From the NCBI RefSeq assembly GCF_009914755.1, contig NC_060936.1: 64,000 nt of DNA; one strand, given 5' to 3'. Source of the stretch: the human T2T-CHM13v2.0 reference genome, Homo sapiens. The translations under genes and the position numbers were made by a program. This document shows positions 12,476-13,781 of this stretch, one piece after another (position 1 is the stretch's first letter; each line of letters starts with the position of its first letter). A model generated the notes under the pieces. That model had not been told where the DNA came from. It saw only the letters and a program-made list of their open reading frames with translations, and ran no database searches.

Positions 12476-13781
12476 CTAAAGCTGATGCCTGGGTGAGCTT
12501 TGCAGCATGACAAGCAGAGCCTGAAATTCCTTGCTGAGGGCTGATTCAAGGTGTTAGAAGATCTTCCTCCTAGGTATCCCAATTCAGAAAATATTATACC
12601 TTTTCCTGAAACTCTGGTTAACAAGTATTGATCTAAAAGACTTGATGTTTCTGTAGAGTGCTGGTGTGGTTACTCAAGCAAATAAGATTGTTCCTCAGTC
12701 AGTAGTGCCTGCTGCTGCCACATGTGTGTCAACCTGTGCTGGCTGATGAAAGTGGCTCTTCCTGAGGTTCCCATTTGACCATGAAACCCTATGGCCACTC
12801 GCTCTACCACTCCATAATGTGTAATATCTCTTGCTGACCTAAGACTGTGAATTTATTGCTAAGAATTATCATATTGTGGCTGAGTAGAGTCCTTAAAGGG
12901 CAGTACTGCCAGGCGAGTGTGCTCACTATTCTTTTTCTCCTGGAATTTTCCTTGGTATGGGGCTTAGAAAGGAGTCTAAATATGTGAAAGCCTTCATCTT
13001 GGAATTGATACTGTTGACACACAACTCAGAAGTGTCAGAAGAAAGTGAGAAATCTCTCCTCCTGGCACAGCCTGGGTTGGCTGGATCATCATTACCAGGC
13101 TTGATACCTGGCTTACACAGCCCACAGAGGAATGCCAACAACCAAAGGACCTGTGGAGTGGAGGAAGAGCTGGTACAAATGCCTGGTTGGTTGCTGCCAA
13201 AAGGATTGGAGGGAAGAAAGCGATGAGAGCTGCTTGGGGCAATGTACAAGTTGCTTGGTCCACCTGGACAGTCAAGTGAGGTTTTCAACTTGAGTGTTTT
13301 GCCAAGGAATTCATGGACCTACTCTCGCTCTTCCCTGCATGCCTAGCTTTTTGATTCTGAAACCACATCTGAATTCTGGATTCTGAAATTCCTCTGTAGT
13401 CCAATTCTTCTGTAGTAGCAATTCCAGGAAATCAATTCTTCTTAAAGGCTTGAAGAAGGATACTGGTTTGTGACCTACTGATGGGTGTTTGCTTTTGTTT
13501 GGCTTCTTGGCAATGTTTCCAAGTCCAAGGCTGAGGCAGCTGCTATCACCGGAGTTGTTCTTCTCCTCAAGAGCATCCGGACCCCAGTCAACTCTTCCTG
13601 AGGTGATATATTCTTTGCTTTTGAAACCTAGTATGTATTTTAGACTCTGGAATGCCAATGTCTTTGGCCAGTTGTTCTCTGGTAGTTATCCTAGGGTAGT
13701 GGTTTTTCTCAGGATCAAAACAATCCTCCTTCATAACAATTCTTTTGAGAGACAGCCATATGAAGTGCTGGTCAAATCCAT
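12476..13781 (-). pseudogene. Intronless double-homeobox (DUX family; DUXC/DUX4-like) pseudogene
   Basis: ATG at 13781 (MDLTSTSYGCLSKELL*RRIVL); HD1 EKNHYPRITTREQLAKDIGIPESKIHTRFQKQR; HD2 (13336-13506) [53 protein letters not shown]-terminus SSLLDQ.LL/PEFQEK...LESALSKEFQALLVMLQSSPRHQL*; many stops and frameshifts. Confidence 0.92.

What the first reader, a model, noticed from the sequence alone, without database searches (positions are those of the whole stretch)
12476..13781. Fossil DUX gene joining DUXC/DUX4-like homeodomains, a DUXB-like body and a DUX4-type activation tail
Seen: stitching minus-strand frames gives one ~430-codon decayed gene that the ORF track fragments. It reads HD1, HD2 (QTPISRSQTSILLQAF...[13 protein letters not shown]), then VSQVSSLVMMIQPTQAVPGGE...TPF*APYQ...LGQQEILHIMEW...VKWEPQ, then SSLLDQ.LL/PEFQEK...LESALSKEFQALLVML. 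Known (from memory): HD2 resembles DUXC/DUX4; the middle resembles human DUXB (VSQGPNVMIMQPTQAV...TPFWLQYQ...LGQFDISNILQRW...AEWDP, where DUXB ends); the tail resembles the DUX4 p300/CBP-recruiting domain (LLDELLASPEF...LEAPLSEEEYRALLEEL), which DUXB lacks. Inference: a relic of an ancestral DUXC-type activator, suggesting DUXB is a C-terminally truncated relative. At roughly 40-45% GC by eye and CpG-poor, it is not a D4Z4/DUX4 copy. It may already carry a generic DUX4L pseudogene label; the domain composition is the point.
Basis: partly seen in the sequence, partly recalled or inferred. Interest (0 to 1): 0.85.

Follow-up and report, generated by a model that had tools for sequence, protein, structure and literature searches.

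The report
Ancient dead DUXC-type gene retrocopy
This is a long-dead, intron-less copy of an ancient double-homeobox gene that still shows the activation tail of DUX4-type proteins; with its sister copies it suggests that the tail-less relatives DUXBL and DUXB once had that tail and lost it.

Summary
Window 13781 to 12476 (minus strand) reads ATG, HD1 remnant, HD2, the shared DUX body, a W-E-P-Q motif, two (L)LxxL(L) tail motifs and TAG. It is dead: 16 stops and 7 frameshift steps.

It is not a resident fossil gene or a chimera. It is the coding part of a ~2.8 kb processed pseudogene (11654-14451). The unit is intronless relative to DUXB and ends 17 nt after AATAAA. It belongs to a family at about 30 places in the human genome, with K2P ~0.30 between chr12 and chr5 in all parts.

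The "DUXB-like body" also occurs in non-primate DUXC-type proteins (elephant, orca, seal), which run on into a CTD. Body plus tail is therefore the ordinary DUXC architecture.

The tail alone is not significant in single-hit tests. Scored as two collinear motifs it is (0 of 345 null bins). A family consensus gives an 85-codon open tail, 56% identical to the orca DUXC-type protein down to the same stop.

Human DUXBLP carries the same tail in frame behind its coding exon. The stop codon of DUXB aligns with the relic's TGA.

Whether the source was DUXC proper or a DUXBL-lineage gene at about the time it lost the tail is unresolved (AU tests).

The parts
11654..14451 (-). Whole retrocopy unit (5' leader, coding part, 3'UTR)
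   Evidence: The chr5 copy (L078) aligns from 14451 to 13575 and from 13433 to 11654 at about 70% identity. Nothing but Alu matches lie beyond, although kilobases of flank were available on both sides.
13782..14451 (-). 5' leader (5'UTR-like)
   Evidence: Homologous to the chr5 and chrX copies and to pieces upstream of DUXBLP on chr10. K2P to chr5 is 0.304.
13779..13781 (-).
   Evidence: Sequence. The residues that follow resemble the N-terminus of the macaque DUXBL-type protein P0076 (comparison by eye).
13609..13710 (-). Homeodomain 1 remnant (helices 2-3; helix 1 region lost)
   Evidence: Pfam PF00046, E 4.9e-5, profile positions 20-53 of 57. DUXB exon match at 13690-13634.
13339..13500 (-). 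Homeodomain 2, complete, with an in-frame TGA at 13432-13434
   Evidence: Pfam PF00046, E 1.5e-9, positions 1-55 of 57.
12780..13338 (-). Shared DUX body (middle)
   Evidence: Same frame as HD2 down to 12859 with 5 stops. Matches DUXBLP exon 5, DUXB exon 5 and DUXC-type proteins.
12762..12773 (-). W-E-P-Q motif, where DUXB/DUXBL proteins are about to end and DUX4/DUXC-type proteins continue
12729..12731 (-). In-frame TGA that aligns with the stop codon of DUXB and with the TGA of DUXBLP
   Evidence: MAFFT alignment. Other copies have TGG, CAG, CAA or AGG at this position.
12600..12645 (-). CTD motif 1 (LLDxxLL...PEF), broken by a 2-nt deletion private to chr12
   Evidence: Motif score 55 with marmoset DUX4, 0 of 345 null bins. 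Spacing is 22 nt here against 24 nt in the 5 other copies where both anchors were found.
12503..12550 (-). CTD motif 2 (second LLxxL motif)
   Evidence: Alone it is weak: 6 of 345 null bins score as high with the marmoset query and 17 of 345 with the elephant query.
12476..12478 (-). TAG stop, 8 codons after the second LLxxL, the same position as in orca, seal and bear DUXC-type proteins
11654..12475 (-). 3'UTR-like region, with AATAAA at 11671-11676
   Evidence: Homology to chr5, chr10:43.4M, chrY and L079 ends at 11653/11654, 17 nt after AATAAA. K2P to chr5 is 0.299.

Best explanation
The feature is the coding part of a ~2.8 kb processed pseudogene (window 11654-14451, minus strand).

Inferred origin:
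- An mRNA of an ancient double-homeobox gene was reverse-transcribed and inserted here. That gene had the full DUXC architecture: HD1, HD2, shared body, and a C-terminal domain with two (L)LxxL(L) motifs.
- Expression of the source in germ line or early embryo, where DUX genes act, is inferred.
- The copy has decayed neutrally ever since and has no function now.

Shown: the same source, or near-identical sources, left copies at about 30 places in the human genome. Their consensus restores an open DUXC-type tail.

My best guess for the source (about 0.5) is the intron-containing DUXC-lineage gene that primates later lost, or its immediate forerunner at the DUXBL locus. The main alternative (about 0.3) is a DUXBL/DUXB-lineage transcript at about the time a stop codon cut off its tail.

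The anatomy, the retrocopy hallmarks, the family and the CTD homology are shown. The source gene, the age and the mechanism of insertion are inferred.
For: Retrocopy:
- DUXB exons match the relic contiguously (13690-13634, 13508-13401, 13374-13350, 13095-13053). In DUXB they are separated by about 3.9 kb and 1.5 kb.
- The unit ends 17 nt after AATAAA, at the same base in 4 other copies.
- The chr5 copy shares only the unit, not the flanks.

Family: 48 non-self pieces at E <= 0.001, in about 30 places by my own grouping, on chromosomes 1, 5, 7, 8, 10, 11, 16, X and Y.

Decay:
- 399 codons align to the family consensus, 289 of them identical, with 16 stops and 7 frameshift steps.
- K2P to chr5 is 0.304 (5' leader), 0.321 (coding plus 3' part) and 0.299 (3'UTR), so it is equal everywhere.

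CTD:
- The two-motif chain test gives 0 of 345 null bins for chr12.
- It gives 0 of 345 for 11 of 14 related loci, with DUX4 as a positive control at 158.
- The consensus tail is an 85-codon open frame. It is 56% identical to orca DUXC-type (E 1.7e-17 at database size 1e9), 51% to marmoset DUX4, 51% to elephant and 44% to human DUX4, and it has the same stop position as orca, seal and bear.

Placement: with CTD columns removed, holding the old relics with all CTD-bearing proteins costs only 0.88 lnL (AU p 0.28).
Against: Age-worn hallmarks are missing. No poly(A) tail or target-site duplication is visible, and I made no formal search for them.

The source is not settled:
- chr12 carries TGA exactly where DUXB and DUXBLP stop. 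This favours a DUXB/BL-type transcript whose tail was already untranslated.
- DNA homology to the chr10 DUXBL locus (68%) is as high as between relics.
- AU tests do not reject the relics as sister to primate DUXBL (p 0.23), and only marginally as sister to DUXB (p 0.06).

Method limits:
- The trees come from the quick search with SH-aLRT support only. The careful search did not finish.
- Relic rows are stitched conceptual translations.
- Whether W-x-P and the CTD share one frame in the consensus depends on the alignment: yes, one frameshift.
Confidence: 0.82

Rival explanations
1. The source was a DUXB/DUXBL-type mRNA that already ended at the TGA (12729-12731). Under this reading the tail was 3'UTR when the copy was made, a freshly orphaned CTD rather than coding sequence.
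For: - TGA at the aligned codon in chr12, chr16:38.6M, DUXB, DUXBLP and chr11.
- The best database hits to HD1-HD2-middle are all DUXB-named: 6 of 6, the best being bat at 39%.
- The distal middle is 59% identical to DUXBLP.
- Pieces of the 5' leader match the chr10 DUXBL locus.
- AU p 0.23 for relics as sister to primate DUXBL.
Against: - Other copies have TGG (chr5), CAG (chr7 group), CAA (chr1) or AGG (chr16:32.6M) at that codon. All are one step from a CpG-containing CGR codon (inference), so TGA may have arisen repeatedly.
- The consensus tail is open for 85 codons and 56% identical to orca DUXC-type, so it cannot have been untranslated for long.
- DUXBLP is no closer to the relic consensus than the neutral relics are: 77.8% in the body against 75.5-80.3%. 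A direct parent under coding constraint should be closer.
- The C-terminal 8-residue extension and the stop match Laurasiatherian DUXC-type proteins.
Confidence: 0.3
2. One reading: a resident fossil gene at this locus with a unique domain mix (DUXC/DUX4 homeodomains, DUXB body, DUX4 tail).
For: All the domains are present in that order.
Against: - It is intronless, bounded by a poly(A) signal, and present at about 30 places with unrelated flanks.
- The same mix of body and tail is standard in elephant, orca, seal, bear and camel DUXC-type proteins.
Confidence: 0.03
3. A diverged copy of DUX4/D4Z4, as the gene symbol DUX4L52 implies.
For: The RefSeq label. DUX4 aligns at E 3.6e-25.
Against: - Only 30% identity.
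- GC 41% and CpG o/e 0.09.
- The tail has the 8-residue extension that primate DUX4 lacks.
- chr12 lies outside the strongly supported human DUX4 + marmoset DUX4 + P0133 clade (SH-aLRT 100). The free tree does put the relics on the same side of a 98% branch as that clade, so a more distant link to the DUX4 progenitor lineage is not excluded.
Confidence: 0.02
4. The copies spread by DNA-level duplication of one old retrogene (an earlier D4Z4-like wave), not by many independent retrotranspositions.
For: - Several subgroups are clearly DNA duplicates: 4 near-identical chr16 copies, triplicated Y copies, and chr11 at 97.4% to chr10.
- The chr7, chr8 and Y copies share a break near 12535.
Against: - chr12 and chr5 share no flank.
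- The shared 3' end at the poly(A) site in several groups fits independent retrocopies.
- No tandem unit lies in this window: there is a single chr12 place.
Confidence: 0.12

Closest known systems
DUXC (intron-containing, Laurasiatheria and Xenarthra) and DUXC-type proteins such as orca P0160, seal P0103 and elephant P0105
   Same: Order of parts: HD1, HD2, body motifs, W-x-P motif, and a CTD with two (L)LxxL(L) motifs. The stop lies 8 residues after the second motif. The consensus tail is 56% identical to orca.
   Different: The relic is intronless, dead and a single copy in a primate genome. It is not in a tandem array. Grouping of the homeodomains with DUXC is favoured but not shown.
DUX4 (retrogene in D4Z4, 4q35/10q26)
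   Same: Also a retrocopy of a DUXC-type transcript, with two homeodomains and the CTD. The relics fall on the same side of a 98% SH-aLRT branch as primate DUX4.
   Different: 30% identity, GC-poor and CpG-depleted, not embedded in D4Z4, a longer C-terminal end, dead, and probably older.
DUXBL / human DUXBLP (10q22.3)
   Same: 68% DNA identity over exon 5, including the tail region, and over pieces of the 5' leader. The distal middle is 59% identical. DUXBLP also holds the CTD fossil in frame.
   Different: A different chromosome with no synteny. The relic is intronless and lies outside the primate DUXBL clade (SH-aLRT 100), which holds DUXBLP, the chr1 copy and the macaque and Sapajus proteins.
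DUXB (16q23)
   Same: The stop codon aligns with the relic's TGA. The DUXB 3' region is DNA-homologous to 12730-12594.
   Different: DUXB ends there, and its 3' region has no significant CTD signal and is cut by an Alu. The relic lies outside the DUXB clade (SH-aLRT 99). The distal middle is only 38% identical.
DUXA processed pseudogenes DUXAP1-10
   Same: The same kind of object: dispersed retro-pseudogenes of a DUX gene, taken in print as a sign of germ-line expression (PMC3004920, passage seen).
   Different: A different parent (DUXA has no CTD). Those copies are described as primate-era; these are about 0.30 K2P apart.

Membership tests
DUX (double homeobox) family | Two paired-like homeodomains in tandem in one reading unit | tested here: met
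   Pfam HD1 E 4.9e-5 and HD2 E 1.5e-9. DUX4 double-homeodomain structures at E 1.5e-27 with 2 matched stretches.
DUXC clade (DUXC, DUX4, Dux) | [quoted passage not shown] | tested here: met
   Present as a fossil. The chain test gives 0 of 345 null bins. The consensus tail is 44-56% identical to 6 named DUXC/DUX4-type proteins (38% to bear).
DUXC clade (DUXC, DUX4, Dux) | Homeodomains and body group with DUXC-clade proteins in a tree | tested here: inconclusive
   In the free tree the relics sit on deep open forks, on the DUX4 side of a 98% branch. AU p is 0.28 with all CTD-bearing proteins, 0.23 with primate DUXBL and 0.06 with DUXB.
DUXC clade (DUXC, DUX4, Dux) | Tandem-array organisation (usual, as read in PMC3004920 section 14) | tested here: not met
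   Only one place on chr12 in the genome searches. No second unit lies in the window.
DUX4-like (D4Z4-derived) copies, as the symbol DUX4L52 implies | High identity to DUX4 within GC- and CpG-rich D4Z4 sequence | tested here: not met
   30% identity. GC 40.9% and CpG o/e 0.09.
DUXB | Intron-containing gene at 16q23 whose protein ends just after the W-D-P motif, and membership of the DUXB clade | tested here: not met
   The relic is intronless. It lies outside the DUXB clade, SH-aLRT 99. Its distal middle is 38% identical, E 0.16.
DUXBL | Synteny with TMEM254, SFTPD and ANXA11 at 10q22.3 (PMC13558733 section 6, PMC3004920 section 8), and membership of the DUXBL clade | tested here: not met
   The locus is chr12:61.58 Mb (given). 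It lies outside the primate DUXBL clade, SH-aLRT 100. A sister relation is not rejected.
Processed pseudogene | Lacks the parent's introns | tested here: met
   DUXB exon matches are contiguous in the relic.
Processed pseudogene | Ends at a polyadenylation site; poly(A) tail and target-site duplication | tested here: inconclusive
   AATAAA lies 17 nt before the shared end. No poly(A) tract or duplication can be seen at this age.

The most novel reading that the evidence does not exclude
The relic family is a snapshot, roughly as old as the placental radiation, of a double-homeobox gene with an intact DUXC-type activation tail. Together with the in-frame CTD fossil behind human DUXBLP's last coding exon, and DUXB's stop aligning with the same codon, it would show that the CTD predates the split of DUXBL/DUXB from DUXC. 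On this reading DUXBL and DUXB are nonsense-truncated derivatives whose 3'UTRs are fossil activation domains. That differs from the recent proposal that DUXC gained the CTD.
Probability: 0.55. Interest if true: 0.7.

Novelty: new member of a known kind. Interest (0 to 1): 0.55.

Why it matters
The origin of the DUX4/DUXC activation domain is unsettled in print.
- Bosnakovski et al. [quoted passage not shown]
- Budillon et al. 2026 (PMC13558733, passages) propose that DUXC arose at the DUXBL locus "also gaining a CTD".

Old neutral retrocopies preserve the state of the parent transcript at the time of copying. This family, with the in-frame CTD fossil in DUXBLP, gives sequence evidence that a DUXBL-related lineage once carried the tail. 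It also makes the question testable by cross-species alignment.

The family also bears on a second statement from the 2010 paper, that no trace of DUXC orthologues was found in primates. These copies may be such traces.

For the locus itself the verdict is ordinary: a dead pseudogene whose annotation (DUX4L52, 394 bp) is too short and whose name is misleading.

Tried and rejected
1. Single-hit tests of the tail against human DUX4 were all non-significant: tblastn over the window, a frameshift-aware local alignment (15 of 348 bins, 67 of 500 shuffles), and an HMM of 7 primate CTDs against the six-frame window (E 18, 45, 63). Only the joint two-motif test passed. Splitting the CTD into two motifs was decided after seeing the sequence. 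The two motifs are, however, the ones defined in the literature.
2. Pfam has no family for the middle or the tail.
3. Human DUXB's 3' region gave no significant CTD signal. The chain score was 50 on the gene strand and 55 on the wrong strand. Motif scores of 21-23 were reached by 76-150 of 345 null bins.
4. My query-anchored projection wrongly suggested that all copies share chr12's spacing in motif 1. It dropped insertions. Anchor distances and MAFFT corrected this.
5. The two stops just after W-x-P in the first consensus are a column artefact. The second consensus and chr5, chr7 and chrY read sense codons there.
6. The CTD-directed word-indexed search returned only DUX4-like sequences; every named hit was a primate (54 proteins).
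7. DUXBLP's tail is not better preserved than neutral: 70.6% to the consensus against 67.5-77.3% for the relics. I therefore dropped the idea that primate DUXBL kept a coding tail for long. chr1 and DUXBLP also share 3 in-frame stops there.
8. The armadillo DUXBL isoform X2 read-on is only weakly collinear with the relic: 14 of 1000 shuffles score as high, and there is no blastp hit.
9. The careful tree search did not finish. Wider flanks for 10 siblings could not be fetched.
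Full report
**1. Observation.**
- The ATG is at 13779-13781. It is followed by a short N-terminus and then a frame change.
- Next comes a homeodomain 1 remnant at 13609-13710. Pfam matches it at E 4.9e-5, covering only profile positions 20-53 of 57.
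- A complete homeodomain 2 lies at 13339-13500 (E 1.5e-9) with one in-frame TGA.
- HD2 and the following 'middle' are one frame from 13542 to 12859 with 5 stops.
- Human DUX4, read from the chr4 D4Z4 array of the same genome (L072, P0007), aligns in a single frame from 13800 to 12910. The match has E 3.6e-25 and 30% identity over 303 columns.
- The best solved structures are DUX4 double-homeodomain chains (E 1.5e-27).
- GC is 44.3% in that span, with CpG o/e 0.09.

**2. It is a processed pseudogene, larger than the finding.**
- DNA comparison with related loci shows that homology runs from 14451 to 11654.
- The chr5 copy (L078) is about 70% identical over the whole 2.8 kb. It shares nothing but Alu elements beyond, although several kb of flank were compared on each side.
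- The lower boundary, 11653/11654, recurs in the chr5, chr10:43.4M, chrY and chr10:80.84M copies. It lies 17 nt after an AATAAA at 11671-11676.
- Matches to the exons of DUXB (chr16:81.74 Mb, L073) are contiguous in the relic. In DUXB they are separated by about 3.9 kb and 1.5 kb.
- The unit is therefore an intronless copy of a spliced, polyadenylated transcript with a ~670-nt leader and an ~820-nt 3'UTR.
- No poly(A) tract or target-site duplication is visible. At this divergence that is not informative.

**3. It has many siblings.**
- A DNA search of the genome with the unit gave 48 non-self pieces at E <= 0.001. I group them into about 30 places on chromosomes 1, 5, 7, 8, 10, 11, 16, X and Y.
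- Some are plain DNA duplicates: four near-identical chr16 pericentromeric copies, triplicated Y copies, and chr11 at 97.4% to chr10.
- The chr10:80.88 Mb match is the DUXBL pseudogene of the literature (PMC3004920 section 8; PMC13558733 section 6).
- A macaque and a Sapajus protein, the human DUXBLP translation and the chr1 copy form one clade with SH-aLRT 100.
- The chr1 copy is 91.1% identical to DUXBLP. It is a later offshoot of DUXBL, not one of the old relics.

**4. The tail.**
Taken alone, the tail fails.
- It was not reported by tblastn.
- A frameshift-aware local alignment to the last 60 residues of human DUX4 scored 33. That score was reached by 15 of 348 genomic bins and 67 of 500 shuffled queries.
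- An HMM of seven primate CTDs gave E 18, 45 and 63 for the three fragments.

[quoted passage not shown] I therefore scored the two motifs jointly, allowing frameshifts and 40-260 nt between them.
- With human DUX4 the score was 60. The null had mean 38.8, sd 4.3 and maximum 52, so 0 of 345 bins reached it.
- With marmoset DUX4 (P0050) the score was 85 against a null maximum of 58, again 0 of 345.

The same test on 14 related loci plus the DUX4 control (158) gave these results.

| Locus | Chain score | Null bins as high (of 345) |
|---|---|---|
| chr16:32.6M | 102 | 0 |
| chr16:38.6M | 103 | 0 |
| chr10:43.4M | 103 | 0 |
| chr16:38.9M | 87 | 0 |
| chr5 | 80 | 0 |
| chr7:65.16M | 80 | 0 |
| chr8 | 72 | 0 |
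| chr1 | 66 | 0 |
| DUXBLP (chr10) | 63 | 0 |
| chr11 | 62 | 0 |
| chr7:65.56M | 62 | 0 |
| chrY (first copy) | 57 | 2 |
| chrY (second copy) | 52 | 12 |
| DUXB | 55 on the wrong strand; 50 on the gene strand | 3 (for the 55) |

chr12 is one of the worse-preserved copies. It has a private 2-nt deletion inside motif 1: 22 nt between the two anchors, against 24 nt in the five other copies where both anchors were found. The 24-nt spacing is that of DUX4.

**5. The body is not DUXB-specific.**
- The word-indexed protein search with the HD1-HD2-middle read-through returned 6 proteins. Four carry a DUXB name (bat 39%, gorilla 35%, two sciurids). A mouse lemur protein is named otherwise, and one sciurid protein is unnamed. 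All end just after the W-D/E/Q-P motif.
- A wider search with a mixed alignment brought in named xenarthran DUXBL proteins and DUXC-type proteins.
- Elephant P0105, orca P0160, seal P0103, bear P0115, camel P0110 and the unnamed P0133 and P0081 show the same body motifs and then continue into a CTD.
- DUX4 itself has the W-E-P-Q motif about 100 residues before its end. The relic's tail ends about 91 codons after that motif.
- Body plus tail is therefore the standard DUXC architecture. Human DUX4's body is simply the more diverged one.
- The distal middle is 59% identical to DUXBLP (E 3.3e-16) but only 38% to DUXB (E 0.158).

**6. Family consensus.**
- I aligned the tail region of the copies with MAFFT. 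I then took a majority across six deep groups, one vote per group.
- One frame of this consensus runs from the W-x-P motif through both tail motifs to a stop. The last 85 codons are open.
- This 85-residue stretch aligns end to end with DUXC-type proteins, as shown below.

| Protein | Identity | E (database size 1e9) |
|---|---|---|
| orca DUXC-type | 56% over 88 columns | 1.7e-17 |
| marmoset DUX4 | 51% | 2e-15 |
| elephant | 51% | 4e-15 |
| seal | 50% | not listed here |
| human DUX4 | 44% | not listed here |

- The stop lies 8 residues after the second LLxxL, as in orca, seal and bear. Primate DUX4 stops at once after that motif.
- The consensus moves towards the CTD relative to any single copy. 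That is what homology predicts and chance does not.

Caveats:
- Two stops just after W-x-P in this consensus are a column artefact.
- In a second, full-length alignment one frameshift separates W-x-P from the tail.

**7. The DUXB/DUXBL stop.**
- In the alignment the TGA that ends DUXB aligns with the relic's in-frame TGA at 12729-12731. It also aligns with TGA in DUXBLP, chr11 and chr16:38.6M.
- At that codon chr5 has TGG, the chr7 group CAG, chr1 CAA and chr16:32.6M AGG.
- Every one of these states is a single change from a CGR arginine codon, and most are CpG transitions. This is my inference, not a test. If it holds, recurrent origin of TGA is plausible, and the state in the source transcript stays open.
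- Read in the frame of its own coding exon, human DUXBLP continues from W-E-P through homologues of both tail motifs to a stop. It does so with no frameshift and 6 stops in about 97 codons. The syntenic DUXBL gene therefore carries a fossil CTD behind its reading frame.
- Three of those stops are shared with the chr1 offshoot. DUXBLP's tail is 70.6% identical to the relic consensus, against 67.5-77.3% for the relics. The tail has therefore been non-coding for a long time.
- DUXB's 3' region is DNA-homologous to 12730-12594 (71% over 140 nt, E 6e-8). An Alu then interrupts it. At protein level nothing significant remains.

**8. Placement.**
- In a tree of 33 rows by 352 columns (quick search; the careful one did not finish), the DUXB clade has SH-aLRT 99 and the primate DUXBL clade 100. 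chr12 and the other old relics sit on deep open forks outside both.
- For a second tree I cut the alignment at the end of DUXB, so that possession of a tail cannot act. I dropped four fragmentary relic rows and added the consensus. A 98% branch then puts the seven old-relic rows on the side of primate DUX4 plus P0133. Long branches and skewed composition were flagged there.

| AU test: old relics held together with | lnL cost | p |
|---|---|---|
| all CTD-bearing proteins | 0.88 | 0.28 |
| primate DUXBL | 10.0 | 0.23 |
| DUXB | 25.0 | 0.06 |

- The data favour a DUXC-side source, do not exclude a DUXBL-side one, and speak against DUXB.
- DUXBLP's body is no closer to the relic consensus (77.8%) than the neutral relics are (75.5-80.3%, leaving out each copy's own group). 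That is a weak argument against DUXBL as the direct parent.

**9. Decay and age.**
- Against the consensus protein, chr12 aligns over 399 codons (13710-12494). Of these, 289 are identical. There are 16 in-frame stops, 7 frameshift steps, 7 codon insertions and 2 codon deletions.
- K2P distance to chr5 is 0.304 in the leader, 0.321 from 13433 to 11654 and 0.299 in the 3'UTR alone. No part has been constrained since the copies separated.
- About 0.15 substitutions per site per lineage, at commonly quoted mammalian neutral rates of 1-2.2e-9 per year, gives very roughly 70-150 million years. The rates are recalled, not taken from any call. The copies would then date from around the early placental radiation. 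This is an estimate, not a date. Synteny in other mammals would settle it, and no other mammal genome was available here.

**10. What is in print.**
- 'DUX4L52' occurs in 0 papers of the library.
- 'chromosome 12' and 'DUX4L' occur 0 times in PMC13558733. 'chromosome 12' occurs 0 times in PMC3004920. 'DUX4L' occurs 0 times in PMC3141429.
- Two further searches listed no paper on dispersed DUXC-type retro-pseudogenes in human.
- Zhong and Holland (PMC3141429, passages) mention 23 newly identified 'DUX4' loci without detail in the text I saw. This locus may be among them.
- Papers read: PMC3004920 (outline, sections 8 and 14, passages), PMC13558733 (outline, sections 6 and 9, passages), and PMC10514451, PMC3141429 and PMC10195082 (passages only). 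No supplements were opened.
- The idea that the CTD was ancestral and then lost was raised as a possibility in 2010. The 2026 paper instead writes of DUXC 'gaining a CTD', while also pointing to a shared terminal sequence in its Supplementary Fig. 9, which I did not see.

**11. Verdict.**
- The locus is an ordinary dead retro-pseudogene, under-annotated and misnamed.
The composition is standard DUXC, not a chimera.
- The value lies in the family. Its consensus and the in-frame CTD fossil in DUXBLP give sequence evidence on when the activation tail existed and how DUXBL, and probably DUXB, lost it.

Noticed in passing
L075 (chr11:108183000-108192999) against L074 (chr10:80876000-80885999): The chr11 locus is a 97.4%-identical multi-kb duplicate of the chr10 DUXBLP region, with the flanking repeats in the same order. 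A second DUXBLP copy on chr11 is not mentioned in the passages I read.
   Followed up: partly
L079 (chr10:80839800-80842500); also chr10:80847250-80847427 and chr10:80904200-80904538: About 40 kb from DUXBLP, in the opposite orientation, lies a 5'-truncated copy holding only CTD motif 2 plus the full 3'UTR of the unit. Further leader-like pieces lie nearby. These could be another retrocopy or a remnant of a second DUX gene at the DUXBL locus.
   Followed up: partly
L005 (chr1:54460203-54463472): A 5'-truncated copy starting just after HD2. It is 91.1% identical to DUXBLP and clusters with primate DUXBL-type proteins, so it is a later offshoot of DUXBL rather than an old relic.
   Followed up: partly
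L019-L022 (chr16:32.6-34.3 Mb) and chrY 23.7-26.0 Mb: Four near-identical copies lie in chr16 pericentromeric duplications, each with a 173-codon open stretch over HD2 and body. Several subfamilies are triplicated on Y.
   Followed up: no
Proteins P0003, P0004 (squirrel, marmot): Sciurid proteins named DUXB fall inside the DUXB clade (SH-aLRT 99). The passages I read say that DUXB is absent from Glires.
   Followed up: no
Protein P0066 (armadillo DUXBL isoform X2): It reads 56 residues past the usual DUXBL end. The extension is only weakly collinear with the relic's region behind W-x-P: 14 of 1000 shuffles score as high, and there is no blastp hit.
   Followed up: partly
window 17370-18690: An old repeat, about 68-72% identical, is shared with the flanks of DUXBLP on chr10 and its chr11 duplicate, in the opposite relative orientation to the DUX unit. 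It is probably an interspersed repeat.
   Followed up: no
window 12388-12393: A second AATAAA lies within the 3'UTR, about 65 nt upstream of where homology to the DUXBLP, chr11 and chr1 copies ends at about 12325. It may be an alternative poly(A) site of the source transcript.
   Followed up: no
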